Source of the DNA: Acidimicrobiia bacterium
GTDB taxonomy: Bacteria; Actinomycetota; Acidimicrobiia; Acidimicrobiales; VFJN01
Reading direction: 5' to 3'
Length of the DNA: 64,000 bases
Assembly (NCBI GenBank): GCA_009694375.1
Contig: SHVB01000016.1
Location: forward strand, 189 to 64,188
Shown here: in pieces, positions 36,654-48,775 of the stretch
How the letters are laid out: every line of letters begins with the position of its first letter
Numbering within the stretch: the stretch's first letter is position 1
The notes under the pieces: model-generated
What the model was told of the DNA's origin: nothing
Seen by the model: only the letters and a program-made list of their open reading frames with translations
Database searches by the model: none
Made by a program: the position numbers and the translations under genes

Positions 36654-36834
36654 TCCCAAAGGTGTGGTCACTTTCGGCTGGTAATGACCTGATTTTACCC
36701 CTCAACCTGGTATGCTGACGGCGTTGTGATTCGGGCGTCTGACCAGGGTTTTTACTTCGATTTCCCTGGCGTTTTCCCCCTACGCAGCCCGGATGCTCCA
36801 GGCGCCGGGCCCACCATCTAAACGAGGTCCATTC

Positions 36835-38760
36835 GTGGCGCAGTCCGAGGGGTCTTACGGGGCCAACAGCATGCAGGTTCTGGAGGGGCTCGATCCTGTT
36901 CGTAAACGCCCTGGCATGTACATCGGCAGCACCGGGCCCACTGGTCTTCACCATTGTGTTTGGGAGGTGGTGGACAACTCGGTGGATGAGGCCATGGCTG
37001 GCCACGCCACTCGAATCGAGATCTCCTTACTGCCCGACGGCGGCTGCCGGGTAGTGGACGATGGACGCGGGATTCCTACCGACATCAACAAGCAGCAGAA
37101 GATGAGCGGGGTGGAGATCGCCCTTACGAAACTGCACGGCGGCGGAAAGTTCGGCGGCGACGGGTACAAGGTTTCTGGTGGGCTGCACGGTGTTGGGGTG
37201 TCGGTGGTGAACGCCCTCTCCCGAAAACTCATCGTGGAGGTGGACCGCGGTGGACAGCGCTACCAAATGACCTTCGAGAACGGCGGAGTACCCAGCAGCA
37301 CACTCGAGGTGGTCGGCACCTCGCCCCGCGGCCGCACCGGCACCACCGTCACGTTCTGGCCGGACGGTTCTATTTTCGAAACCACCGAGTTTTCCGCCCG
37401 TACGATTCTCGAACGCCTCCAGATGATGGCGTTCTTGAACAAGGGCCTGGAGATCGTGTTCACCGACGAACGGCCCGAGCATGCCGCCCCGGCGGTTACC
37501 TACCGTTACGCCGGCGGCATCATCGATTTTGTCAAGCATCTCAATACCTCCAAAGAGGCACTCTTCGCCAAGGTGGGGTACTACGAGTTGGCCGAAGAAG
37601 AACAAGAAGTGGAGGTGGCGTTCCAGTGGAACACGGGGTACAACGCCGACGGCATCCACTCCTTCGCCAATGGGATCAACACGACCGAGGGTGGGTCGCA
37701 CGAGGAAGGGTTCAAAGCGGCCCTCACCACCGTGGTGAACAAGCACGCCCGAGCCAAGAACCTGCTCAAAGAGAAAGAGCCGAACCTGCTCGGCGAAGAC
37801 ATCCGCGAAGGCATCACGGCAATCCTCTCGGTGCGTCTGCGCGAGCCACAGTTCGAGGGACAAACCAAAGGCAAACTGGGGAACACCAGCGTGAAGACGC
37901 TGGTGCAGAAGGCCACCAACGACAAATTGGGTCAGTGGTTCGAAGAAAACCCCGCTGAGGCCAACAAGATGGTGAAGAAGGCCCTCGCGGGGGCCCAAGC
38001 CCGCATGGCGGCCAAAAAGGCGCGAGACGTCATCCGGTCCAAGACTCTGCTCGACGGCGCCGGAATGCCCGACAAGTTGAAAGACTGCAGTTCTAAGAAC
38101 CGCGAGGAGCGCGAACTGTTCATCGTGGAGGGCGATTCGGCGGGCGGTTCAGCCGTAAGTGCCCGAGATCCTCTACGGCAAGCGATTCTGCCTATCCGCG
38201 GCAAAATCCTCAACGTGGAACGAGCGCGCCTCGACAAGATGCTGCGCAATCTCGAGGTCCAGGCGCTCATCGCGGCCATCGGGGCCGGGGTGGGGGAGGA
38301 GTTTGACGTAGAAAAACGCCGCTACGACAAGGTTTGTATTCTCGCCGACGCCGATGTGGATGGCCTACATATCCGCACTCTGCTCCTGACCTTCTTCTAC
38401 CGCCAAATGAAGCCCCTGGTGGAACACGGACACGTATTCATCTGTCAGCCCCCGCTGTATTCCACCGAGGTCAGCAAGGCGAAGGTGTACCTGAAAGACG
38501 ACCATGCCAAGGATCTCTTCCTGCGAGACAATCCGAATCACAAGAAGGACTTCGGTCGTCTCAAAGGTTTGGGGGAGATGGACGCGGAGGAGTTGCGGGT
38601 CACCACGATGGAAGATGGTCTCCGCACGTTGCTTCGGGTCACCGCCGAACAGGCTGCCCTGGCCGACGACACCGTCTCCACCCTCATGGGCGACGTAGTG
38701 GAAGTACGCAAGGCCTTCATCGTGAATAACGCTAAGGACGCGAGGTTCCTGGACATCTGA
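36835..38760 (+). CDS. gyrB: DNA gyrase subunit B
   Basis: [33 protein letters not shown], the EGDSAGG Toprim motif and [10 protein letters not shown]. Start is GTG at 36835 or the upstream ATG at 36793. Confidence 0.95.
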
Positions 38761-41225
38761 TGTCAGATCAAACCCCCCCCACTGACGGGCCCGTGCGCGA
38801 AGCCATCGAACCGATCGAGATCCAGGAGGAGATGGAATCCTCGTTCCTCGACTATGCGATGTCGGTTATCACCACCCGCGCTCTGCCCGACGCGCGCGAC
38901 GGCCTGAAACCAGTGCACCGGCGGATTTTGTACGGGATGTACGAACTCGGGGCGCGCCCCGACCGCTCCCACATGAAGTGCGCCCGCGTTACCGGCGACG
39001 TCATGGGGAAGTACCACCCCCACGGTGAGGGATCGATCTACGACGCGCTCGTGCGTATGGCGCAGGACTTCTCGCTGCGCCACCCGCTGGTAGACGGACA
39101 CGGCAACTTCGGCAGCCCCGACTTCGGCGCGGCGGCCTCCCGCTACACCGAGTGCCGACTGGATCCCATCGCCATGCGGATGCTCGACGGCATCGACGAG
39201 AACACGGTGGACAAGTCCGATAACTACTCGGGCGACGAAACCGAACCGGATGTGCTCCCGGCGCGATTCCCCAACCTGTTGGTGAACGGGAGCCAGGGCA
39301 TCGCGGTGGGGATGGCCACCAACATTCCGCCCCACAACCTCGGCGAGGTGATCAACGCCACCATCCACCTCATCGACCACCCCGAGGCCAGCCCCGATGA
39401 CCTGATGCAGTTCGTCCAGGGACCTGATTTCCCGACCGGGGCTCTCATCATGGGCCGCCAGGGCATTCTTGATGCCTATCGCACCGGAAAAGGATCGATC
39501 CGACTGCGGGCGGTGTGCGAGATCGAGGAAGGCAGTGGACGCAGCGGCGACCAGATCGTGGTGACCGAGATGCCCTACCAGACCTCCATCTCGGTGACCG
39601 CGGCTCGCATCGCGGAGTTGGTGCAAACCCGGTCCATCGAGGGCATCAGTGATGTGAACGACGAATCCGCCCGGGGCAAAACCCGTCTCGTGATCAAGTT
39701 GAAGAAGGATGCGCCGGGCCTGGTCATCTTGAACAACCTCTACAAGCACACCCCGTTGCAGACGAACTTCTCGGTGAACACGGTGGCCCTGGTGGGGGGC
39801 ATTCCCCGCACGCTAAACCTGGTGCAGGCGCTGCAGGCCTACGTTGATCACCAGGCCGAGGTCATCCGCCGCCGCTCTGAGTTCCGCCTCAAAAAGGCCG
39901 GCGACCGGGCCCACATCGTGGAGGGCTTGCTCAAAGCCGTTGACGTGATCGACGCCATCATCGCGCTCATCCGGGCCTCGGATGATCGTGCGGAGGCGCG
40001 CGTGGGCCTCACTTCGGCTCCCTACAACTTCTCCGACGTGCAGGCAGAGCACATTCTCGAAATGAAGTTGGGTCAACTCACTCGCTTGGCGCGGGTTGAT
40101 CTCGAAACCGAGATGGCCAACCTACGGGAGGTGATCGCCGGGCTCGAAGCGATCCTCGGCGATGAAGGTGTGTTGCGCACGGTAATGAAGGATGAGCTAA
40201 CCGAGGTGCGCGACAAGTTCGCCGACGCCCGCCGCTCCAAGATCACCCTCGACCTCGGTGACGTAAACATCGAAGACCTCATCGACGACGAGGAACTGGT
40301 GGTCACCCTCTCGGCTCGTGGCTACATCAAAACGGTGCTGGCCGATGCCTTCCGCTCGCAGGGCCGGGGCGGGCGCGGCGTGGCGGGCGCGAAACTTCGC
40401 GATGAGGACTACGTGACGCAGATCCTCACCACTACCGCTCATGCGTACCTGCTGTTCTTCTCCAACTTGGGGCGTGTCTATCGCCTCAAGGCCCACGAGA
40501 TTCCGAAGAAGGAACGCACCGCTCGGGGGACGGCGATGCCCAACCTCCTGCAACTTCAGCCGGGGGAGCACATCCAAACGATCATCGACACCCGCGACTA
40601 CGAGACCAGTCGTTTCTTGTTCTTCACCACCAAGCAGGGGCAGGTGAAGAAAACAAAGTTCAATGACTACGACTCGTCGTTGCGCACCGGGATCATCGCC
40701 ATCAATCTTCGGGGGGGCGACGAACTCGTGAAGGTCATTCCTACCAACGGGAGCGACGACATCTTGATGCTCAGCAAGTTGGGCCAGGCCATCCGTTTCA
40801 CGGAAGGCGACGTGCGACCCATGGGCCGAGCCGCCGCAGGGGTGAGGGGCATGAAATTGCGCACCGGCGACGAAGTGGTGAGCCTCGACAGCTGTCGCGA
40901 CGACGTAGCCATGCTGATCGTTACCGATGCCGGTTACGGCAAACGCACCCAGTTGGAGCACTTCAACCGCCAAGGCCGCGGCGGGCAGGGAGTGCGGGGA
41001 ATCAAAATCACAGCCAAAAAGGGACACGTGGTGGCGGCCTTCATGGTGGGCCTTGACGACGAGATTTTCGTGGTGAACTCGGTGGGAACGCTCATTCGTA
41101 TGCCGGTGAGGGAGATCTCTTCTCAGGGACGCGACGCAACCGGCGTGCGGGTTATGAACCTCGACGACAACGAAACAGTGGCGTCGGTAGCCCCGGTTCT
41201 TTCCGCCGACGACGACACAAGCTGA
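38760..41225 (+). CDS. gyrA: DNA gyrase subunit A
   Basis: [19 protein letters not shown] (catalytic Tyr region) and C-terminal beta-pinwheel repeats. The start overlaps the gyrB stop. Confidence 0.95.
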
Positions 41226-41640: not shown

Positions 41641-42333
41641 ATGCTTACGGCGATGGTTTCCGATCCCGCTGGCGCATCGATGCCCATTGGCACCCGGGTG
41701 GGCGACGCGGCGACAGAGGAACTTCGTTCTCGGCGTGCCTCTGACGCCGCTCACGGAATCAGTCGGCCGCCGGCGAAGGGGGGCAAAGACCCGTCACGGC
41801 CCGGGAGCAGTCGTGATCGCGTCCGGGCCCGCAAGGTGCAGCGGGTGGTCCGCCACATCGACCCGTGGTCGGTTCTGAAGCTCTCGTTGCTGTTTTTCCT
41901 GGCGCTGGTCGTCATCATCTGTATCGCATTGGCTCTGTTGTGGGGGGGCGCCCGCAGTACCGGCACCCTGGGTGGCGTGGAGGACTTCATCACCGAGGTG
42001 GGGGGCTTCGGCAACTGCCCTGAACCCGTGGGTGAGGTCCCGGCGGTGCCAGCTGTGCCATCCGCTGACCAACCGGTCACCGCCGTCCCCACTGGGGATC
42101 AGAGCTGCGTCGGTGGCGCTGAACTGCAGGACACCTTCCGATTCGAGGACAGGAAGATCTTTGCGGCCGTTGCCCTTGGAGGGTTTGTGCTCGTGTTCGC
42201 CGGTTCGATGGGTGCCGTGGTGATGGCGCTGCTGTTCAACGTGCTGAGCGACCTCACCGGGGGGGTACGGATAACGGTGCTGGAGGAGGATCCCAGCCCC
42301 CGATCGGCCGGTACCGGCTCGCCGGGGCGCTAG
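41641..42333 (+). CDS. DUF3566 domain membrane protein (Rv0007-type)
   Basis: RHIDPWSVLKLSLLFFLALVVIICIALALLW and C-terminal MALLFNVLSDLTGGVRITVLEED. Located between gyrA and tRNA-Ile, as in mycobacteria. Confidence 0.7.
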   Translation: MLTAMVSDPAGASMPIGTRVGDAATEELRSRRASDAAHGISRPPAKGGKDPSRPGSSRDRVRARKVQRVVRHIDPWSVLKLSLLFFLALVVIICIALALLWGGARSTGTLGGVEDFITEVGGFGNCPEPVGEVPAVPAVPSADQPVTAVPTGDQSCVGGAELQDTFRFEDRKIFAAVALGGFVLVFAGSMGAVVMALLFNVLSDLTGGVRITVLEEDPSPRSAGTGSPGR

Positions 42334-42370: not shown

Positions 42371-42447
42371 GGGGCTATAGCTCAGTCGGTTAGAGCGCAT
42401 CCCTGATAAGGATGAGGTCGGAAGTTCGATTCTTCCTAGCCCCACCA
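42371..42447 (+). tRNA. tRNA-Ile (anticodon GAT), CCA encoded
   Basis: Cloverleaf read by hand. Acceptor GGGGCTA/TAGCCCC, D arm GCTC-AGTCGGTTA-GAGC, anticodon arm CATCC-CTGATAA-GGATG, T arm GGAAG-TTCGATT-CTTCC, discriminator A, then CCA. Confidence 0.95.
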
Positions 42448-42458
42448 GTCCTGACCCG
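42399..42458 (+). repeat. attL-like direct repeat (3' half of tRNA-Ile plus 11 bp)
   Basis: Positions 42399-42437 are identical to 45638-45676 (39 of 39). The match extends to 55 of 60 through 42458/45697. Confidence 0.85.
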
Positions 42459-42565
42459 CGAGTCCGTCGCCATACTGCGATGGCCGCCCCGCCCGAACCG
42501 GGCCCAGGCCGCCGTCCTCGAGTGCTGCCGTCGGGTGAGGTCTCAAGGCACCCAACTGCCTCGCC

Positions 42566-43126
42566 TCAGCTGACACGGGGGTCGTCGGCCAGAAGCAGTG
42601 CGAGGGCTTTGCGGGCGCGGTGGATGGCGACGTCGATGGCGCCTGGCTCTTTGCCGAGCTCGGCGGCGATGTCCTTGGTCGACCGGCCGGCTACGTAGCG
42701 GGCTTCGATGAGGAACCGGGCTTCGGGGGACAGGCTGTCCAGGGCTTGCTCGATCACGATCTGCAGGACGGACTGGACGCTGGGGCTCGACATGCCGAGG
42801 GGCAGCTCCTGGACCAGGCGCGCGTAGTGCTGGTCGGGCCCGAAGTCGCCGTCGGCATCTTGTCGCGGTGGAGGAAAGGTTCCCTGCCGGCCGAAGGGAA
42901 CGTCCCGGTGCAGCTTCTTGCCGATGCGGCGGGCGTCGTTGGCGGCGACCTTCCAGACCCACCCATCTCGCTTGTCCGGGTCGATGTCGTCGAGTCCCTC
43001 GATGAGCTCCATCACGGCGTGGTTGGCCGCGCCTTCGAACACCTGGTCATCGCTGGAGATGGTCTTGGCTGCCTTGAGTGCGATCTTTCGGAAGTAGACC
43101 AACTCTTCGTCGCTCAGCTCCCCCAT
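42566..43126 (-). CDS. divergent sigma-70 family (ECF-like, two-domain) sigma factor
   Basis: Region-2-like NHAVMELIEGLDDIDPDKRDGWVWKVAANDARR. Region-4 HTH LSPEARFLIEARYVAGRSTKDIAAELGKEPGAIDVAIHRARKAL. No adjacent anti-sigma gene. Confidence 0.7.
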   Translation of the reverse strand: MGELSDEELVYFRKIALKAAKTISSDDQVFEGAANHAVMELIEGLDDIDPDKRDGWVWKVAANDARRIGKKLHRDVPFGRQGTFPPPRQDADGDFGPDQHYARLVQELPLGMSSPSVQSVLQIVIEQALDSLSPEARFLIEARYVAGRSTKDIAAELGKEPGAIDVAIHRARKALALLLADDPRVS

Positions 43127-43287
43127 GCCCTCGAAGGCTACGGGTCAGGCCGGCCCGCCGCTGGCGACAGCCCGCAAGGGCCCCCGCAAGAGATTCGCGA
43201 GACCCGGTGTAAGAAATCGCCCCTCGGATGACTCCTCTTCATTGAAGGGCACTTGACCCGAGCGCCCCATCGAAAGGAGTCACGAAC

Positions 43288-43881
43288 GTGACCATCAAGC
43301 CCAACCTCGACTTCGTCACCGATCGCATCGCCACCGGCGGCGACCTACCCCATCGCCGGGAGGACGCCGCCGCGGCCCTTCGGGTCTGGCAGGACCTCGG
43401 GATCACCCACGTGATCGATAATCGGCAGGAGTGGACCGACGAGGACCTCGTGGCCCACCTCGCCCCCGAGATGAGGTACCTCTGCAACGGGGTCGCTGAC
43501 GCCGGCAACGGCCAACCGGACCATTGGTTCGACGACGGTGTCGCCTGGGCCCGGGAGGCGTTGAGCGATCCCGACGCCAAGGTGCTCATCCACTGTCACA
43601 TGGGCATCAACCGGGGGCCGTCGTTGGCCTACGCCGTCTTGCTCGATCAGGGCGTCGACCCGGTGGACGCGGTCGACGCCATCCGTACCGCCCGCCCCAT
43701 CGCCGGAGTGTCCTACGCCGAGGACGCCCTCGGTTGGTTCCACCGCCGCCACGACGTCGACCCCGCCCGCCGGTCCGAGGACCGTCGCCGGCTCGCCCAG
43801 TGGCGCCACGAGAACCATATCGACGTCGTTCGCATCATCCGCAGCATCCGCCAGGACGAAGCGGCCGCCCGGGTCGCCTGA
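43288..43881 (+). CDS. dual-specificity / Tyr-phosphatase-like protein (CX5R)
   Basis: Active-site loop VLIHCHMGINRGPS (HCX5R[S/T]). GAAAGGAG ribosome-binding site 8 nt upstream of the GTG at 43288. Confidence 0.7.
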   Translation: MTIKPNLDFVTDRIATGGDLPHRREDAAAALRVWQDLGITHVIDNRQEWTDEDLVAHLAPEMRYLCNGVADAGNGQPDHWFDDGVAWAREALSDPDAKVLIHCHMGINRGPSLAYAVLLDQGVDPVDAVDAIRTARPIAGVSYAEDALGWFHRRHDVDPARRSEDRRRLAQWRHENHIDVVRIIRSIRQDEAAARVA

Positions 43882-43927
43882 CCCGCCACCTATCCGTACC
43901 AACACCCACCCAACCAGGAGATCCCCA

Positions 43928-44035
43928 ATGAGAAGCGTCACCGTCGAGCTCAACGACAACGAGTTCGCCCAGTACGTCACGGACCAGTGGCACTGGAAGC
44001 AGGACTTCACCGATTCCACCGAAGTCTACCGATGA
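43928..44035 (+). CDS. 35-codon micro-ORF (MRSVTVELNDNEFAQYVTDQWHWKQDFTDSTEVYR)
   Basis: AGGAGA ribosome-binding site 6 nt upstream of the ATG. Its stop overlaps the ATG of the next ORF (cgATGAgg at 44032-44035). It falls below the 60-aa cutoff of the supplied ORF track. Confidence 0.4.
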   Translation: MRSVTVELNDNEFAQYVTDQWHWKQDFTDSTEVYR

Positions 44036-45492
44036 GGCCCCGACCCTCGACCCCGAAAGGAACAACCGTGAACGCAGCCAAACCGCCCGTCTGGGACATG
44101 ATCGAGACGCTTACGAGGAGCCGTCTCGTCGTACCGCCCCTCGGATCCACCGACCCCGGCCAGGTCGACGCCTTCGGCCAGTGGCACTGGGGCACCCGCG
44201 ATCTCAACGCCCTGGACGAGCTGTACCTGTTCGACGTCGAGGCGGTCGCCCGGAACATCATCGACCACGGTCCCCTTTTCTCGCTCTCCTACGCCGGCCA
44301 CGGGATCAACAGCTACGCCCTCAGCCTCGTGACCACCGCGCCCACGGGCGATGTCGCCTTTTTCACCCAGGGCGGCCTCGGGGGCGGGTACTCCGACGAG
44401 GACAAGGACATCGCCAGGATCAACGACGCCTACCAACGAATTGCCCGGGAGTCGGCAGAGCTCGACGGCGGCACTCGCACCGACCGGGTCCGCTGGCTGG
44501 TGTTCTCGTCCTTCATGCGCGACGAAACAGGAATCATCGACCTCGATGGGCTCCGAGAGGGGGCGGGGGTCGACTCGGCCCTCGAGTGGATCGACGACAG
44601 CGTCCTCTTCGATGAGCTCAAGGCCCGTCGAGCCGCCGCTGATCCGTCCGCACCCCCGGTGGCCGGGATCGTCCCCCACCTTGCGGAGGTCCTGCGGCGG
44701 CTGAAAGACGACTCGCACCTCGTGATCAACGTTCTTGGATCGGTCCGCTACGTGCAGTTCGCCACCTTCCGACCCAACCTGCGTCTGGAGACCATCGGCA
44801 TCCGCTACCTCGAGCGGGACAACGACGCCATGACCGTCGACCACCTGGTGTGGCTCGCCTACCAGGGGTGGCACGACGCCGATGACGGCGGGAACCTGTG
44901 GCGGGAATGGATTCCGGCCGACGAGGACGAAGCCGCCGCCGCCGCCGTGGAGGTCCTCGTCAAGGTCCACGGCGTCACTGATATCGACCAGATCTGGTTC
45001 CATTCCGAAGACGACGATGCCCTCGCCGCGCTCGACCACTTCTCGCCGCCGAGGCCGGTACCACCGGGGGGCCTGCAACCGACCAACCGATTCCGGGCGG
45101 CAGTGATCAATGCTGCCTTGGGAGGAGAGCCGCTACGGCTGCTTTCCGGGTCCAAGGTCGTCGCGGTGGTCGACTACATCGCTCGTGACGCGGTGCTGGT
45201 GATGCTGGCTCTCGTGGACGGCGAGGTCCTCCGCCGCCACGACGGCCGCTGGCGTGACGACCCCGACTGGGACAAGGTCCTCCCGAAGGCACCGGCCCGG
45301 TCGATCGTCCCGCTCACCCAGGAGCAGTTCGACAAGGTCCGCGTCCAGATTGACCGATCGTCGGCAGGGAAGCCCTGGAAGCCGTTCAAGGCCCCGGACC
45401 TCGAGCGGTATTGGCCCAGTTACTGTCCCAACGACCCGGATCTGTTCGACTGGAGCCAGCTCGACTCCATCGCCGAGCTCCACGAGCGGTGA
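44032..45492 (+). CDS. large orphan protein of unknown function (about 486 aa)
   Basis: Long ORF with coding-like composition. Candidate starts are ATG 43987, ATG 44032 (coupled to the micro-ORF) and GTG 44068 (GAAAGGA ribosome-binding site). I recognise no catalytic motif. The acidic central segment is vaguely YbjN/chaperone-like. Confidence 0.6.
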   Translation: MRPRPSTPKGTTVNAAKPPVWDMIETLTRSRLVVPPLGSTDPGQVDAFGQWHWGTRDLNALDELYLFDVEAVARNIIDHGPLFSLSYAGHGINSYALSLVTTAPTGDVAFFTQGGLGGGYSDEDKDIARINDAYQRIARESAELDGGTRTDRVRWLVFSSFMRDETGIIDLDGLREGAGVDSALEWIDDSVLFDELKARRAAADPSAPPVAGIVPHLAEVLRRLKDDSHLVINVLGSVRYVQFATFRPNLRLETIGIRYLERDNDAMTVDHLVWLAYQGWHDADDGGNLWREWIPADEDEAAAAAVEVLVKVHGVTDIDQIWFHSEDDDALAALDHFSPPRPVPPGGLQPTNRFRAAVINAALGGEPLRLLSGSKVVAVVDYIARDAVLVMLALVDGEVLRRHDGRWRDDPDWDKVLPKAPARSIVPLTQEQFDKVRVQIDRSSAGKPWKPFKAPDLERYWPSYCPNDPDLFDWSQLDSIAELHER

Positions 45493-45637
45493 GGCGGGCT
45501 GAGGGGATGGGGACTGGCGACGACATCGGGCGGGGCGGCTACCCGGCGAAGTGGCAAACAGCGGTTTCTGGCGGTCACCCCCCGTCGCGAAAGACCAGGT
45601 CAGTGGGGATGGCGGTCAATGGCGCGCACCCCCATCG

Positions 45638-45697
45638 ATCCCTGATAAGGATGAGGTCGGAAGTTCGATTCTTCCTCGCCCCACTATCCCTGACCTG
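45638..45697 (+). repeat. attR-like direct repeat (displaced copy of the tRNA-Ile 3' half)
   Basis: See 42399-42458. This copy has no tRNA 5' half upstream of it and carries an acceptor-stem change (TCGCCCC versus TAGCCCC). Confidence 0.85.
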
Positions 45698-45824
45698 TAA
45701 GTTTGCCGTCGCCGGAAGTACCATTCGGCCAAATGACAGTCGTGGGGCGGGATTGGTAGGGTTCGTTGGGGCTAATCGTGCTGCGTTCCCGGTTTTACGC
45801 TGGCGCTTGTCGGGGGGGGGTGTG

Positions 45825-48536
45825 ATGTACGTGGGCACAGTGCGAGCAAGTAAGCGGTGGGCGCTCATAACGGTGCTTCTCGTGGCGGTGGGGCTCGCGG
45901 CGTCGCCACCGTCAGCGTCGGCGCACACCCCGCACGACGACATCTTCGATGTCGCCGTATCACCGGAGTTCAGCTCCGACGACACGCTCCTCGCCATCTC
46001 GCGTGGGCTGTTCATGCGATCCACGGACGCGGGGGTGACCTGGCAGCGCCTCGTAAAGGGGCTCAATAACCTAGCGCAACCTCAAGGGGTGGCCTTCGGC
46101 GGCGGGGTGAGCAGCCGAGCGTGGGCCTTGAGCCGGGACGGCGTCTTTCGCTCGGACGACGGGGGAGTCGCCTGGACACGAGTGATGACCCCGGTTGCCA
46201 ATGACCTCCAAGTGGTGGGTACGACGAGCGCCTCTCGGGATGTTGCCGTCGTCGCGGGCCCGGCCGCTGGTGCGTACATCACCCGCGATGGAGGGGTGTC
46301 GTGGGGGCCACTGGGGAGTTTCGGGGCCGCCGTCACCGCGGTGGCCTTCAAGAAGGCCAGTAGCCAGGTGGTGTTCGCGGGGGACGCCAACGGTGTCCTG
46401 CACATCTCGGGCACTGGCGGGGCGGCCTGGTTCAACTACCCACTGGCGGGGGCCGGAGCGATCACGTCGATCGCGGTGTCTCCGTCCTTCTCGACCGACG
46501 GCCTCGCGTTGATCGGCACCAATACTGGCGGCGTCCTCCGGTGGAACAATTTCACCAAGACGGCCACTTCGGTCAACAGCGGCCTCACGGACCCGCGGGT
46601 GACCTCCGTGACGTACTCCGCCGATTACGCCTGGGACTCCACGGTGTTCGCGTCGACCTGGACCGGCGGGTTGTTCGTCTCGGGTGACCGGGGGAGCACC
46701 TGGAGCGCGTCGAACAGCGGTCTGGTGTGGGATCCCCAACCGACCCAGATTGCCTTCCAGGACCGTCCGAACTTCGGCCGGGTGGTGAGCGCGCTGACGG
46801 ACCAGGTCACCCGGACTCAGACCGTTTTCCTGGCTGCCTTCGTGGGGCTGTACGCCTCTGACAACCGGGGGGCATCCTGGGCCGAGAGCGAGACCCTCAC
46901 CTCGAGCATCCTCGTGGGCCTATCGCTCTCCCCGCAGTACGGCACGAACCGGAAGGTGGCCATCTCCACCTACTCGAACGGCGCCTTCACCTCGGCCGAC
47001 GCGGGCGCAACCTGGTCGGAGAGCAACCTGGGGCTGGCCCAACGGGGCTTCTGGGATGCCGAGCCGGATGGGTACGCTCGGTTGTACAACATCGCCTACG
47101 CGCCCCCGGTGGCCGGGCGGTCCTGGTTGTACTCCTCGGTGGCCACCCACGGCGGGAGTCCCGGCGGCGTGCTGCGCTCGAGTGACGGCGGCGCCTCATG
47201 GTCGCGCACGTCCGTGCCGGGGTTCAGCAGCCCTGACTTCGATACCCACATCCCCTTCGTGCTGCCATCGCCGAACTTCGCCAACGATCGTTCCGTCCTG
47301 ATGGTCGATGGTGGCAATGGCTTCGTCAACCGCTCCGTGGACGAGGGCGCTTCGTTCCAGCGGGTCGGCACGATCCCGTTCCAGCCGCGGTGCCTCCAGG
47401 CCTCGCCCAACTTCGCCGCCGACCAGCGCCTGTTGGTCTGCACCAGTCGCGGTGTCTACGTGAGCACCGACCTCGGTGCGACGTGGTCCCCGACGGCGAG
47501 CTTGAACATGACGGGGCTTGCGGTGGTCGTGAGAAGCGGCGTCAGCGAGACCTGGCTCGCCGCCACCACGACCGGGCTGTTTCGGAGTACCAACCGAGGG
47601 GTGTCGTGGACGCGAGCGTCGCTGCCGTCGTCGGTCCCGGCCACGGCTGAGGTCGTGTCGGTGGCCAGCTCGCCCCCGTCCAGCGGGCCCGGCACCGTTC
47701 TCGTCAGCATCCGTGGGCGAGGTCTGCTCCGCTCCACCGACGGAGGCGCCACCTTCGGTGCCCTACTGACCGCGCTCCTGGATGCCAACGAGCAGCTCGA
47801 CAACTCCAACGCCAAGCCCACGGCGTCGGCGATCGCCTTCTCCCCGGTCTTCGAGGCCGACCGGACCGTGTTCGGCTACTCCAACGATCACCTGTTCCGT
47901 TCCACCGACGGGGGGGCCACGTGGGTGCGGGTGGTCTTCCCACGCGCCACGCACACGGGCCCCTTTCCCGTGGCCCCCTCCGCCCCGGTGATGGGAACCG
48001 CCACCAGCAGCAGTGGGTCCGCATCGGTCACCTTCACCCCATCCGGCGCCGGAGGGGCCCCCGCGGTTCGCTTCGACAGCACCTGCACCTCGACCAACGG
48101 AGGAGTCACGGGCGGCGGGTCGGGCCCATCGAGCCCAGTGATGGCAAGCGGCTTGACCAACGGCAAGACCTACACGTGTCGAGTGACGGCGACGAACGCG
48201 GGAGGCACCAGTGCCCCGTCAGGATCGTCCAACGCCGTCGTACCGATCGCCGTACCATCGGCCCCGCTGTCGGTGACGGCCGTGGCTGGGCCGGGACAGG
48301 CAACGGTCTCCTGGACGGTGCCGTCGTCGGACGGGGGCTCTCCCATCACCGGATACACGGTGACCCCCTACGTCGGGTATTTCGTCCTGCCTTCGACGAC
48401 ATTCGGTCCGGCGAGCACGAGCCAGACGCTCACGGGCCTCACGAACGGAACCTCCTATCGGTTCAGCGTGATCGCGATCAACGGCGCTGGAGCGAGCGCA
48501 CGGTCCACGCTGTCGAACCTCGTTGTTCCCGCCTGA
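45825..48536 (+). CDS. secreted Asp-box (BNR) repeat beta-propeller protein with two C-terminal fibronectin type III domains
   Basis: Signal peptide MYVGTVRASKRWALITVLLVAVGLAASPPSASA. About 13 S-x-D-x-G-x-T/S-W repeats (STDAGVTWQRL, SDDGGVAWTRV, SSDGGASWSRT, STDGGATWVRV and others). FN3-like segments PSAP...YTCRVTATNAGG and PSAP...SYRFSVIAINGAG. Confidence 0.8.
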   Translation: MYVGTVRASKRWALITVLLVAVGLAASPPSASAHTPHDDIFDVAVSPEFSSDDTLLAISRGLFMRSTDAGVTWQRLVKGLNNLAQPQGVAFGGGVSSRAWALSRDGVFRSDDGGVAWTRVMTPVANDLQVVGTTSASRDVAVVAGPAAGAYITRDGGVSWGPLGSFGAAVTAVAFKKASSQVVFAGDANGVLHISGTGGAAWFNYPLAGAGAITSIAVSPSFSTDGLALIGTNTGGVLRWNNFTKTATSVNSGLTDPRVTSVTYSADYAWDSTVFASTWTGGLFVSGDRGSTWSASNSGLVWDPQPTQIAFQDRPNFGRVVSALTDQVTRTQTVFLAAFVGLYASDNRGASWAESETLTSSILVGLSLSPQYGTNRKVAISTYSNGAFTSADAGATWSESNLGLAQRGFWDAEPDGYARLYNIAYAPPVAGRSWLYSSVATHGGSPGGVLRSSDGGASWSRTSVPGFSSPDFDTHIPFVLPSPNFANDRSVLMVDGGNGFVNRSVDEGASFQRVGTIPFQPRCLQASPNFAADQRLLVCTSRGVYVSTDLGATWSPTASLNMTGLAVVVRSGVSETWLAATTTGLFRSTNRGVSWTRASLPSSVPATAEVVSVASSPPSSGPGTVLVSIRGRGLLRSTDGGATFGALLTALLDANEQLDNSNAKPTASAIAFSPVFEADRTVFGYSNDHLFRSTDGGATWVRVVFPRATHTGPFPVAPSAPVMGTATSSSGSASVTFTPSGAGGAPAVRFDSTCTSTNGGVTGGGSGPSSPVMASGLTNGKTYTCRVTATNAGGTSAPSGSSNAVVPIAVPSAPLSVTAVAGPGQATVSWTVPSSDGGSPITGYTVTPYVGYFVLPSTTFGPASTSQTLTGLTNGTSYRFSVIAINGAGASARSTLSNLVVPA

Positions 48537-48637: not shown

Positions 48638-48775
48638 ATGGCCTTGTTTCGCCGTGCGGTTGTTGCAGTGGGGGTGGCCAGCATCGTCGCGACGGTCCTT
48701 CGTCTCCGAGGGAGCGGTGGAACCCCTCCCCAATACGGGGGCTGGCGTGAACTGTCGGGCCCGGATCTCGAATGA
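48638..48775 (+). CDS. 45-codon small ORF (MALFRRAVVAVGVASIVATVLRLRGSGGTPPQYGGWRELSGPDLE)
   Basis: GAAGGAGAA ribosome-binding site 7 nt upstream. One hydrophobic helix. The stop overlaps the ATG of the next gene (aATGAgg at 48772-48775). Confidence 0.4.
   Translation: MALFRRAVVAVGVASIVATVLRLRGSGGTPPQYGGWRELSGPDLE

What the first reader, a model, noticed from the sequence alone, without database searches (positions are those of the whole stretch)
42566..43881. Divergently transcribed sigma-70-family gene and CX5R phosphatase as islet cargo: a possible phospho-controlled sigma module with no anti-sigma factor
Seen directly: a 186-aa two-domain sigma-like protein (the region-4 HTH is clear, region 2 is divergent) lies head-to-head, 161 bp apart, with a 197-aa protein carrying the phosphatase P-loop HCHMGINRGPS (Cys-X5-Arg). 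No membrane or zinc-finger anti-sigma ORF follows the sigma gene.

Established knowledge: most ECF sigmas are held by a co-encoded anti-sigma factor. A minority are instead controlled by Ser/Thr phosphorylation of the sigma itself, for example the Vibrio EcfP-PknT system.

Inference: pairing an orphan sigma with a protein phosphatase on a mobile islet suggests a reversible phosphorylation switch, with the kinase supplied by the host. A sigma/phosphatase pair that hijacks host transcription in a phage-like way is also possible. I know of no described family with this pairing.
Basis: inference. Interest (0 to 1): 0.6.

Follow-up and report, generated by a model that had tools for sequence, protein, structure and literature searches.

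The report
Mobile sigma-driven phosphatase–chaperone gene cassette
A 3.2-kb insert beside a tRNA gene carries a very unusual small sigma factor that seems to exist only to switch on the neighbouring phosphatase-plus-chaperone operon, a mobile three-gene unit seen in many freshwater and soil actinobacteria whose biochemical target is still unknown.

Summary
A 186-aa two-domain ECF-like sigma (42566-43126, -) lies 161 bp head-to-head with a 197-aa Cys-X5-Arg phosphatase (43288-43881, +), and no anti-sigma gene follows it.

The pairing is not a one-off. Every informative member of this tiny, very divergent sigma clade sits divergently next to this phosphatase family.

- A third conserved gene, a 474-aa TY-Chap3 chaperone-like protein (44068-45492), follows the phosphatase.
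- A bipartite promoter-like motif, TGTAAGAAA-N13-GACTC (43208-43234), lies about 55 nt upstream of the phosphatase start. It travels with the sigma clade, and its -35 half changes in step with the sigma's region-4 recognition helix. It occurs once in the 2.58-Mb genome.

My reading is that the sigma is the dedicated activator of the phosphatase/chaperone operon. The cassette is a sigma-regulated, ARG-less variant of the predicted ADP-ribose-centred conflict systems of Iyer et al. 2022, which combine a rhodanese-phosphatase enzyme, a TY-chaperone or vWA protein and a transcription factor.

The phosphatase family is much wider (213 species) and mostly lacks this sigma, so the sigma is unlikely to be its general substrate. 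A phospho-switch on the sigma is neither supported nor excluded. The complex prediction was uninformative.

The scan had noted the same islet before, on this same stretch.

The parts
42371..42447 (+). tRNA-Ile(GAT), the integration target
   Evidence: ARAGORN. In same-genus genomes G018 and G007 the same tRNA is followed directly by the saccharopine-dehydrogenase-like gene, which is an empty site.
42399..42463 (+). Left copy of the 65-nt direct repeat (3' half of the tRNA plus 16 nt); att-like islet boundary
   Evidence: the repeat finder family D1.
42566..43126 (-). Divergent two-domain ECF-like sigma factor, 186 aa: sigma2 about residues 6-72, conserved disordered linker 73-116, sigma4 117-180
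   Evidence: Only 19 clusters (at 50% identity) reach E<=1e-10 among 1.84 billion representatives.
43208..43234 (+). Bipartite promoter-like motif TGTAAGAAA (43208-43216), 13-nt spacer, GACTC (43230-43234), pointing at the phosphatase gene
   Evidence: Invariant flanks with a variable spacer in 12 aligned loci. Present in every locus with this sigma clade, also where the sigma lies 1.6 kb away. 15 of 16 matches in 2.45 Mb of loci lie directly upstream of the phosphatase. Single match in the own genome, none in window shuffles.
43244..43279 (+). Conserved leader box GAAGGGCACTTGACCCGAGCGCCCC (43244-43268) and ribosome-binding site AAAGGAG (43273-43279)
   Evidence: Alignments. A small hairpin is predicted but has no compensatory changes, so its role is open.
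43288..43881 (+). VHR-like Cys-based dual-specificity-type phosphatase, 197 aa, with a conserved C-terminal helical extension
   Evidence: 213 species representatives in Actinomycetota.
44068..45492 (+). TY-Chap3 (T3SS/YbjN-type chaperone-like) three-module protein, 474 aa. The ORF list extends it to a GTG at 43987.
   Evidence: Pfam PF22552, E 1e-12. Homologues start at MNAAKPP. A strain variant replaces 43891-44039 by 10 nt. Structure-atlas matches are TY-Chap1/3 and YbjN clusters.
45638..45702 (+). Right copy of the direct repeat (partial tRNA-Ile 3' half); islet boundary
   Evidence: The same repeat is in G017.

Best explanation
The islet carries a self-contained three-gene expression cassette.

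Wiring. The small, highly divergent ECF-type sigma factor has no anti-sigma partner. It is probably made from its own housekeeping-type promoter as a leaderless mRNA. It directs RNA polymerase to one cognate promoter, TGTAAGAAA-N13-GACTC (43208-43234). That promoter drives the divergent operon for the Cys-X5-Arg phosphatase and the TY-Chap3 chaperone-like protein.

Working parts. The phosphatase and the chaperone do the work. The chaperone-like protein is inferred to bind a modified or misfolded target protein. The phosphatase is inferred to remove a terminal phosphate from that target or from an ADP-ribose-derived group.

Closest kind. The cassette is a sigma-regulated, ARG-less variant of the predicted conflict systems of Iyer et al. 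2022 (phosphatase plus TY-Chap or vWA plus transcription factor). It moves on integrative and conjugative elements, and here it sits as an integrase-less insert in tRNA-Ile.

What is shown (comparatively):
- gene identities;
- conservation of the trio;
- the promoter-like motif and its co-variation with the sigma;
- mobility.

What is inferred:
- that the sigma really initiates at this motif (about 0.75);
- that the enzyme and chaperone act in an ADP-ribose or phospho-modification conflict (about 0.35-0.4);
- how the sigma's activity is gated (unknown).
For: 1. The module is conserved.
- The sigma is divergent from the phosphatase in the window and in L009, L010/11, L013/14, L015/16, L018, L020, L022, L028/31, L035, L066, L121, L122 and L123. 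It lies 1.6 kb away in L012 and L019.
- The TY-Chap3 protein follows the phosphatase in all close loci.

2. The motif behaves like a cognate promoter.
- Fixed 13-14-nt spacing, invariant TxxAAGxAA and GACTC, and a variable spacer.
- It stays about 55-60 nt upstream of the phosphatase start even when the sigma is displaced.
- 15 of 16 matches in 2.45 Mb lie at that place.
- It is unique in the 96%-complete genome, and 0 matches are expected by chance.

3. The -35 half changes with the sigma4 recognition helix:
- TGTAAGRAA goes with DVAIHRARK;
- ATGAGAAAC goes with DNKLTAAKR;
- TGTCAGGAAtcc...CGTCGT goes with DQRTTRAKR.

4. The protein is a genuine sigma fold with both domains.

5. The phosphatase is catalytically intact and highly constrained.

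6. Neighbours of the wider phosphatase family match the component list of PMC9503650 section 3.8.
- They recurrently include vWA (7), TY-Chap1/3, ADP-ribosylglycohydrolase (3), Nudix-NrtR (2) and sigma.
- In L009 a Macro-domain gene overlaps the TY-Chap3 gene by 4 nt, beside ARPP-1, REase-ARP, NrtR and PTP-SAK genes.

7. Mobility.
- tRNA direct repeats and empty sites in G018 and G007.
- Variable contexts, including conjugation-like genes in L013/14.

8. Contigs from two metatranscriptome libraries cover parts of the phosphatase and TY-Chap3 genes, and one bridges the two genes. This is weak evidence.
Against: - No transcription start has been measured. One RNA-library contig (43139-43339) begins about 70 nt upstream of the motif. 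Either another start exists or DNA was carried over into the library.
- If GGAAT is taken as the -35 element, the distance to GACTC (12 nt) is shorter than in textbook ECF promoters. Only if TGTAAG is the -35 hexamer is the spacing (16 nt) canonical.
- Pfam does not recognise region 2, and the region 2.4-like helix is 3 residues shorter than usual.
- A sigma with no visible control makes an odd regulator.
- The window islet has no ARG, Macro, Nudix or ART gene, so the ADP-ribose link rests on relatives and on a prediction paper, not on experiment.
- PADLOC knows none of the three proteins.
- The three groups used for the co-variation argument are few and related by descent.
Confidence: 0.55

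Rival explanations
1. Phospho-switch. A host Ser/Thr kinase phosphorylates the sigma, for instance at the conserved Ser/Thr83 of the G-S/T-x-P-P linker motif, at S113-S116, or at S24 beside the DD of region 2.2. The co-encoded phosphatase removes the phosphate. Because the sigma drives the phosphatase, this gives a feedback loop that takes the place of an anti-sigma factor.
For: - The sigma and phosphatase are always paired from the sigma's side, and there is no anti-sigma gene.
- The 45-residue linker is predicted disordered, yet it carries motifs conserved between sigma subgroups that are only 35-40% identical (KLHRDxPFGRxG[ST]xPP).
- The position of the DAED motif reads S-x-D-D, with a near-invariant Ser.
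- Groups of ECFs regulated by phosphorylation exist (PMC8999054).
- One locus (L018) has a Pkinase gene 1.4 kb away.
Against: - No kinase is conserved in the module.
- Two acidic residues are kept where EcfP has none.
- The phosphatase family is invariant in its active site and C-terminal motifs across 213 species, most of them without this sigma.
- Five isolate genomes with the phosphatase have no full-length member of the sigma clade, so the family's substrate is something else.
- The complex prediction scored 0.00, which the tool says is not evidence either way.
- VHR-like enzymes prefer pTyr/pThr, and nothing is known here.
Confidence: 0.15
2. Chaperone as sensor or anti-sigma. The TY-Chap3 protein (vWA or TY-Chap1 in other loci) holds the sigma, or is titrated away from it by a modified or misfolded client. 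Appearance of the client then releases the sigma and induces the operon, with the phosphatase acting on the client.
For: - A peptide-binding chaperone-type gene is the most frequent third component, and it evolves faster than the other two.
- ECF sigmas are normally co-expressed with their own inhibitor.
- The conserved disordered sigma linker could be the bound peptide.
Against: - L121 has the sigma/phosphatase pair with the motif but no chaperone gene.
- The chaperone type is replaceable: TY-Chap3, TY-Chap1 or vWA.
- The complex prediction gave no interface (uninformative).
- There is no similarity to any anti-sigma domain.
Confidence: 0.12
3. Host take-over. The element's sigma redirects the host RNA polymerase to many promoters, as a phage sigma would, and the phosphatase is just one target.
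For: - It lies on mobile DNA.
- There is a weak match to a phage sigma PHROG (phrog_1740, E 3e-7).
Against: - The cognate motif occurs once in the 2.58-Mb genome, in front of the phosphatase.
- In 2.45 Mb of related loci, 15 of 16 matches are at that same place.
Confidence: 0.05
4. Decaying remnant. The three genes are leftovers of a larger integrated element and no longer work together.
For: - No integrase is present, and the islet is only 3.2 kb.
- The right repeat copy has diverged to 89%.
Against: - All three frames are intact.
- The same trio with the same motif is kept in more than 10 independent contexts at 48-97% identity.
- The catalytic residues are invariant.
Confidence: 0.03

Closest known systems
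ARG-centric predicted anti-ADP-ribosylation conflict systems (Iyer, Burroughs, Anantharaman, Aravind 2022, Viruses 14:1977; PMC9503650, section 3.8)
   Same: - A rhodanese-phosphatase-superfamily Cys phosphatase is tightly coupled to a TY-Chap (here TY-Chap3) or vWA chaperone-like gene and to a dedicated transcription factor.
- The genomic contexts are variable, mobile and island-like.
- Relatives of this phosphatase sit beside ADP-ribosylglycohydrolase, Nudix-NrtR, Macro, ARPP-1 and REase-ARP genes.
   Different: - The window cassette has no ARG or other ADP-ribose-processing enzyme.
- The regulator is a positively acting ECF-like sigma with its own promoter, not a Nudix- or WYL-HTH repressor.
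- The main text of the paper never mentions a sigma.
- The phosphatase matches Pfam DSPc rather than PTP-SAK.
- The published system is itself only a prediction.
ECF (group 4) sigma factors, for example M. tuberculosis SigL, SigH, E. coli RpoE
   Same: - Two-domain sigma2-linker-sigma4 architecture.
- TIGR02937 is passed.
- Sigma4 is closest to SigL.
- The promoter-like motif is bipartite with a GGAAT-type -35 half.
   Different: - Region 2 is not recognised by Pfam and is shortened.
- The linker is long and conserved.
- There is no anti-sigma gene.
- The sigma is transcribed divergently from its apparent single target rather than co-transcribed with its regulator.
- The clade is tiny: 19 clusters at E<=1e-10 among 1.84 billion representatives.
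Phosphorylation-activated ECFs (ECF43: V. parahaemolyticus EcfP/PknT, X. citri EcfK/PknS)
   Same: - An orphan ECF without an anti-sigma gene, next to a gene of phospho-signalling.
- Ser residues lie at or near the DAED position.
   Different: - The partner is a Cys phosphatase, not a Hanks kinase.
- The acidic DD of the motif is retained.
- No phosphorylation is known.
- The phosphatase family is mostly independent of the sigma.
Human VHR/DUSP3-type atypical dual-specificity phosphatases
   Same: - HCx5R P-loop and a general-acid Asp about 30 residues upstream.
- Profile match at E 2e-15 over 113 residues.
   Different: - It is bacterial and has an extra conserved C-terminal helical segment (W150, H152, W172, D179).
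- The residue pattern after the Arg is GPS.
- The substrate is unknown.
Integrase-less tRNA-flanked islets (cis-mobilisable-element-like remnants of integrative elements)
   Same: - Direct repeats of the tRNA 3' half at both ends.
- Relatives show empty sites.
   Different: - Only three cargo genes, with no recombination or transfer genes.
- Mobilisation in trans has not been tested.

Membership tests
ECF-type sigma-70 family | Two-domain sigma2 + sigma4 architecture without regions 1.1 and 3 | tested here: met
   AF2 model plus Foldseek: full-length matches to SigL, SigH, AlgU and RpoE at probability 1.0. TIGR02937 scores 49.5 bits against a cutoff of 42.9 over residues 13-176.
ECF-type sigma-70 family | Sequence-level region 2 (Pfam Sigma70_r2) with the W..IA.N...D..R signature | tested here: not met
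   No PF04542 hit at E<=0.1. Only a weak, shortened W-x3-A-x-N-D-x-R-R match to SigL.
ECF-type sigma-70 family | Region 4 helix-turn-helix | tested here: met
   PF08281, E 4e-13. Profile hit to SigL sigma4 at E 5e-9.
ECF-type sigma-70 family | Initiates transcription at a cognate -35/-10 promoter | tested here: inconclusive
   A conserved bipartite motif co-varies with sigma4. There is no transcription-start or biochemical data, and the RNA-library contigs are ambiguous.
Phosphorylation-regulated ECFs (ECF43-like) | Co-encoded Hanks-type Ser/Thr kinase | tested here: not met
   There is none in the islet. Among about 20 related loci only L018 has a Pkinase gene nearby, and Pkinase is not among the recurrent neighbour families.
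Phosphorylation-regulated ECFs (ECF43-like) | Loss of the acidic DAED motif of region 2.2, replaced by Ser/Thr | tested here: not met
   The family reads S-x-D-D-Q-V, with two acidic residues kept. EcfP has STTA (PMC8999054). The placement of the motif is by my own alignment to the canonical pattern.
Phosphorylation-regulated ECFs (ECF43-like) | The sigma is phosphorylated in vivo | not testable with these tools
   Needs Phos-tag or mass spectrometry.
Cys-based dual-specificity / PTP superfamily | H-C-x5-R P-loop | tested here: met
   HCHMGINRGPS at residues 102-112, invariant in 19 homologues.
Cys-based dual-specificity / PTP superfamily | General-acid Asp on the upstream loop | tested here: met
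   D71 is invariant and aligns with the Asp of the KANDTQ segment of VHR. As I recall, that residue is Asp92, the general acid of VHR.
Cys-based dual-specificity / PTP superfamily | Family profile score | tested here: inconclusive
   Pfam DSPc scores 32.9 bits against a gathering score of 33.5 for the single sequence. The family profile matches VHR at E 2e-15.
ARG-centric anti-ADP-ribosylation systems (PMC9503650) | ADP-ribosylglycohydrolase (ARG) core gene | tested here: not met
   None is present in the islet. ARG is adjacent to 3 of about 65 more distant members of the phosphatase family.
ARG-centric anti-ADP-ribosylation systems (PMC9503650) | Coupled rhodanese-phosphatase-superfamily phosphatase | tested here: met
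ARG-centric anti-ADP-ribosylation systems (PMC9503650) | TY-Chap, vWA or SseB chaperone-like gene | tested here: met
   PF22552 TY-Chap3, E 1e-12. Structure-atlas matches to TY-Chap1/3 and YbjN clusters.
ARG-centric anti-ADP-ribosylation systems (PMC9503650) | Nudix- or WYL-HTH one-component repressor | tested here: not met
   An ECF-like sigma takes its place. The word 'sigma' is absent from the paper's main text.
tRNA-integrated genomic island | Direct repeat of the tRNA 3' end at both borders, and an empty site in relatives | tested here: met
tRNA-integrated genomic island | Own integrase | tested here: not met
   The islet holds only three ORFs, and none is a recombinase.

The most novel reading that the evidence does not exclude
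A new way of gating an ECF-type sigma without an anti-sigma factor. The sigma's conserved disordered linker (KLHRDxPFGRxG[S/T]xPP ... SSxS) would be phosphorylated by a host kinase. The sigma-driven Cys phosphatase, recruited by the TY-Chap3 protein, would erase the mark. That would give a portable sigma/phosphatase feedback circuit that mobile elements carry between actinobacteria.
Probability: 0.15. Interest if true: 0.8.

Novelty: new variant of a known kind. Interest (0 to 1): 0.5.

Why it matters
Three reasons follow.

1. It defines a very small, very divergent branch of the sigma-70 family whose members appear to have a one-promoter regulon. It also supplies the candidate promoter sequence. 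That makes a compact, possibly orthogonal sigma/promoter pair that is directly testable.

2. It adds a positive, sigma-based regulator to the phosphatase/TY-chaperone conflict systems. Those systems have so far only been predicted, and only with Nudix or WYL repressors. A minimal three-gene version such as this one is a convenient entry point for finding out what these phosphatases and chaperones act on.

3. It is an example of an ECF-type sigma with neither an anti-sigma factor, a kinase nor an extension, so how it is controlled is an open question.

Tried and rejected
- Complex prediction. The three-chain run (TY-Chap3 protein + phosphatase + sigma, with my alignments) gave a median score of 0.00. 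By the tool's own verdict this is neither support nor evidence against.
- Fold of the TY-Chap3 protein. Foldseek against the PDB gave nothing significant (best E 0.014, sliding clamps at TM about 0.09). Only the structure atlas recovered TY-Chap and YbjN clusters.
- Recent horizontal transfer between G000 and G017. I first read this from the sigma being 99% identical while DUF3566 is only 74% identical. I rejected it: the flanking BNR, saccharopine-dehydrogenase-like and next genes are 95-99% identical too, so the two genomes are simply close and DUF3566 evolves fast.
- The 5'-leader hairpin as a structured RNA element. It has no compensatory pairs, so I do not claim it.
- Local jackhmmer and my crude GC3-based gene caller. 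They were too insensitive for distant TY-Chap families and mis-called some genes. I replaced them with Pfam tallies on the neighbour ORFs. Those tallies still rest on imperfect ORF choices.
- Other libraries. PADLOC gave no hits. The PHROG hits were weak.
- Literature:
  - The ECF reclassification (PMC7826278) and the review of non-canonical ECFs (PMC8999054) do not mention phosphatases in their main text.
  - Burroughs & Aravind 2023 on the rhodanese-phosphatase superfamily (PMC10034599) is not held, so I could not check whether this phosphatase clade or its sigma link is described there.
  - No supplements of PMC9503650 are held.
- Unpublished genome.
Full report
**Setting.** The window is the replication-origin region of a 65% G+C actinobacterium. 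It holds gyrB (36793-38760), gyrA (38760-41225), a DUF3566 protein and tRNA-Ile(GAT) at 42371-47. Record titles of related loci point to Acidimicrobiia, many of them Ilumatobacteraceae. The runs that hold the stretch are freshwater and lake metagenomes.

Directly after the tRNA lies a 3.2-kb insert. It is bracketed by a 65-nt direct repeat of the tRNA's 3' half (42399-42463 and 45638-45702, 89% identical). It holds three genes and no integrase.

Relatives compare as follows:
- In same-genus genomes G018 and G007 the tRNA is followed at once by the saccharopine-dehydrogenase-like gene, which lies at 48772 in the window. That is an empty site.
- G001 and G016 carry other inserts there.
- The close relative G017 has the same islet at the same place.

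The 186-aa protein:
- It passes NCBIfam's sigma70-ECF superfamily model over residues 13-176.
- In Pfam it shows only region 4.
- An AlphaFold2 model built on 16 homologues (mean pLDDT 75.8) has a three-helix N-terminal bundle (6-72), a 45-residue low-confidence linker and a four-helix C-terminal domain.
- Foldseek aligns 175-195 columns of the model to solved ECF sigmas (SigL, SigH, AlgU, RpoE, SigW) with probability 1.0.
- By sequence, region 4 is closest to M. tuberculosis SigL. Region 2 keeps only a shortened W-x3-A-x-N-D-x-R-R trace.

The 197-aa protein:
- It carries HCHMGINRGPS. The loop and Asp71 are invariant in 19 homologues down to 55% identity.
- A family profile finds human VHR/DUSP3 at E 2e-15.

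No conserved gene follows the sigma in any locus.

**What else is there.**

*A third gene.* The ORF after the phosphatase has a TY-Chap3 domain (PF22552, E 1e-12). Its homologues are about 474 aa and start at MNAAKPP, which places the start at 44068 rather than at the GTG at 43987. A strain variant seen in a DNA run and in an RNA library replaces 43891-44039 by 10 nt, which agrees with that start. The AF2 model (pLDDT 66.5) shows three alpha+beta modules. It has no significant PDB match. In the ESM Atlas its nearest clusters are TY-Chap1, TY-Chap3 and YbjN families.

*A conserved upstream motif.* The sequence upstream of the phosphatase carries TGTAAG(A/G)AA, 13-14 variable bases, then GACTC. 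A conserved box and the ribosome-binding site follow.

**Is the pairing conserved?** Yes, and asymmetrically.

The sigma clade is tiny:
- 15 clusters in the 5.8-billion-protein word-indexed search.
- In the exhaustive phmmer search of 1.84 billion representatives, 115 hits at E<=1e-3, 19 at E<=1e-10 and 2 at E<=1e-30.

Every member whose surroundings could be read lies next to this phosphatase family:
- Divergently adjacent in the window and in L009, L010/11, L013/14, L015/16, L018, L020, L022, L028/31, L035 and L066.
- Also divergently adjacent in L121, L122 and L123, whose sigmas are only 35-48% identical to the window's.
- 1.6 kb away, behind three small genes, in L012 and L019.

The phosphatase family is far larger:
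- More than 438 clusters.
- 213 species representatives across Actinomycetota.
- In 80 fetched loci only about 11-17 have a divergent upstream sigma.

On a phosphatase tree the sigma-linked rows are clustered: 7 changes against a shuffled mean of 15.7, with 0 of 500 shuffles as low. The window sits in a supported clade of eight rows. Seven of them are sigma-linked, and the eighth (L020) was scored 'unknown' only because its contig ends inside the sigma gene. One row, L013, was mislabelled 'nosig' by my script. It does have the sigma.

Five isolate genomes hold the phosphatase but lack the pairing. They are Marmoricola sp. Leaf446, Nocardioides litoris, two further Nocardioides strains and Tessaracoccus sp. 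OS52. None has a full-length member of the sigma clade; only generic region-4 matches appear.

**The link between the two genes.** The motif has the properties expected of the sigma's own promoter.
- The two conserved halves keep a fixed distance while the spacer sequence is free.
- It points at the phosphatase and ends 53 nt before its start codon, which leaves room for a short leader and the AAAGGAG ribosome-binding site.
- It stays in front of the phosphatase where the sigma gene has moved 1.6 kb away (L012, L019).
- A generalised pattern finds 16 sites in 2.45 Mb of fetched loci, and 15 of them are at exactly this place in sigma-bearing loci.
- In the window's own 2.58-Mb, 96%-complete genome the motif occurs once. 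No shuffle of the window produces it.
- Three sigma subgroups have three versions of the -35 half, and each has its own region-4 recognition helix:
  - TGTAAGRAA goes with DVAIHRARK.
  - ATGAGAAAC goes with DNKLTAAKR.
  - TGTCAGGAAtcc...CGTCGT goes with DQRTTRAKR.
- The first two subgroups share both GACTC and a similar region 2.

This is comparative evidence from few, related groups and not a measurement. It is nevertheless the best-supported functional link between the genes: the sigma transcribes the phosphatase/TY-Chap3 operon, and apparently nothing else.

The sigma gene itself is preceded at 7-8 nt by a conserved TANNNT (TAGCCT, TAGCGT, TACCGT, TACGGT). In actinobacteria that arrangement suggests a leaderless mRNA from a housekeeping promoter. 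This is my inference and I did not test it.

Contigs from two metatranscriptome libraries cover parts of the phosphatase and TY-Chap3 genes and none of the sigma gene. Depth is low, contigs have no direction, and one contig starts upstream of the motif. I therefore count this as weak evidence.

**What the operon may do.** Immediate neighbours of the wider phosphatase family are heterogeneous. The recurrent families are vWA (7), TY-Chap3 and TY-Chap1, ADP-ribosylglycohydrolase (3), Nudix-NrtR (2) and sigma.

In L009 a Macro-domain gene overlaps the end of the TY-Chap3 gene by 4 nt. ARPP-1, REase-ARP, NrtR-type Nudix and PTP-SAK genes lie alongside.

This is the parts list of the 'ARG-centric' systems that Iyer et al. 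2022 predicted to counter ADP-ribosylation by viruses. Those systems combine:
- an ADP-ribosylglycohydrolase;
- a rhodanese-phosphatase-superfamily phosphatase;
- a TY-Chap, vWA or SseB chaperone;
- a Nudix- or WYL-HTH repressor;
- optional Macro, REase or ARPP genes (PMC9503650).

The window cassette fits two of these features (phosphatase and TY-Chap3). It fails two: it has no ARG, and it has a sigma instead of the repressor. Neither 'sigma' nor 'ECF' occurs in that paper's main text. I therefore file the cassette as working like those systems, as a new variant rather than a member.

Other contexts are conjugation-like genes (weak TrbL and AAA_10 matches, NlpC/P60) in L013/14, and SLFN_AlbA_2, helicase and methylase genes elsewhere. 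These fit cargo of mobile elements and defence islands. PADLOC has no model for any of the three proteins.

A phospho-controlled sigma is not excluded.

In its favour:
- The linker is predicted disordered, yet it carries motifs conserved between distant subgroups, with an invariant Ser/Thr in G-[ST]-x-P-P and an SSxS patch.
- The DAED position reads S-x-D-D.

Against it:
- No kinase belongs to the module.
- Two acidic residues are kept where EcfP has STTA.
- Most members of this very constrained phosphatase family live without the sigma.
- The only direct test I could run, a three-chain complex prediction, scored 0.00 and is explicitly uninformative.

I give this rival about 0.15. I give about 0.12 to the related idea that the chaperone-like protein gates the sigma.

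**Novelty and limits.** I found no description of a sigma/Cys-phosphatase module in the ECF reclassification or in the review of non-canonical ECFs. I could not read Burroughs & Aravind 2023 on the rhodanese-phosphatase superfamily, which may treat this phosphatase clade.

The scan had already noted the islet on this same stretch (e1-3550930). It had also noted the downstream ORF as an orphan with a coupled micro-ORF (e1-3550932). My data identify that ORF as a TY-Chap3 protein. They also show that the micro-ORF region is dispensable in a natural variant.

**Verdict.**
- The best reading is a mobile cassette in which a dedicated, minimal ECF-like sigma drives a phosphatase/chaperone operon.
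- It is a new variant of a known but only predicted kind of system, and of moderate interest.

Noticed in passing
window 42448-48536; L115-L118: The site downstream of tRNA-Ile is a hot spot for insertions. G018 and G007 go straight from the tRNA to the saccharopine-dehydrogenase-like gene. G001 and G016 have other inserts of 3.5 and 2.4 kb. The window and G017 have the islet plus the 903-aa BNR/Asp-box exoprotein gene.
   Followed up: partly
window 43891-44039: A natural variant replaces these 149 nt by CGATCTGTAA. It is seen in DNA run X6 and RNA library X19. It removes the GTG at 43987 and the 35-codon micro-ORF at 43928 that the scan noted elsewhere, so neither is conserved.
   Followed up: partly
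window 43127-43150 (minus strand) and the same place in L009, L010, L121: A conserved TANNNT hexamer (TAGCCT, TAGCGT, TACCGT, TACGGT) lies 7-8 nt upstream of the sigma start codon with no Shine-Dalgarno sequence. This suggests a leaderless sigma mRNA from a housekeeping promoter.
   Followed up: no
window 43244-43268: A conserved box GAGGGCACTCA (imperfect palindrome TGAG-N4-CTCA in relatives) lies just downstream of the motif's GACTC. A small hairpin is predicted but without covariation. It could be an operator or a leader element.
   Followed up: partly
P0140, P0141; L019 8634-11198; L012 2600-5605: Versions of the TY-Chap3 protein of 852-1001 aa repeat the N-terminal module and the TY-Chap3 module in tandem. 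In L012 there are faint LRV/HEAT repeat hits as well.
   Followed up: no
L009 1-5775: Beside the trio lies what looks like a fuller ADP-ribose-type system: Macro (overlapping the TY-Chap3 gene), REase-ARP, ARPP-1, Nudix-NrtR and a PTP-SAK/Tc-R-P phosphatase. A Vsr/DNA-methylase pair and a DEAD helicase lie on the other side.
   Followed up: no
window 41641-42333 versus G017:C76:6858-7547: The DUF3566 membrane protein is only 74% identical between G000 and G017. The flanking genes are 95-99% identical, so this gene evolves unusually fast.
   Followed up: no
G065 (Tessaracoccus sp. OS52) C1:140111-144094: Two region-4-like helix-turn-helix matches (open frames of 237 and 286 aa) may flank the phosphatase gene of L056 within about 1.5 kb, if contig C1 is the L056 contig. 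This could be another regulator type for the same phosphatase family.
   Followed up: no
L012 8638-10125; L013 8767-10110; L019 4167-5654: A SLFN_AlbA_2 (Schlafen/AlbA_2-like) gene of 447-495 aa follows the sigma gene on the same strand in three independent loci. The window has no such gene.
   Followed up: no
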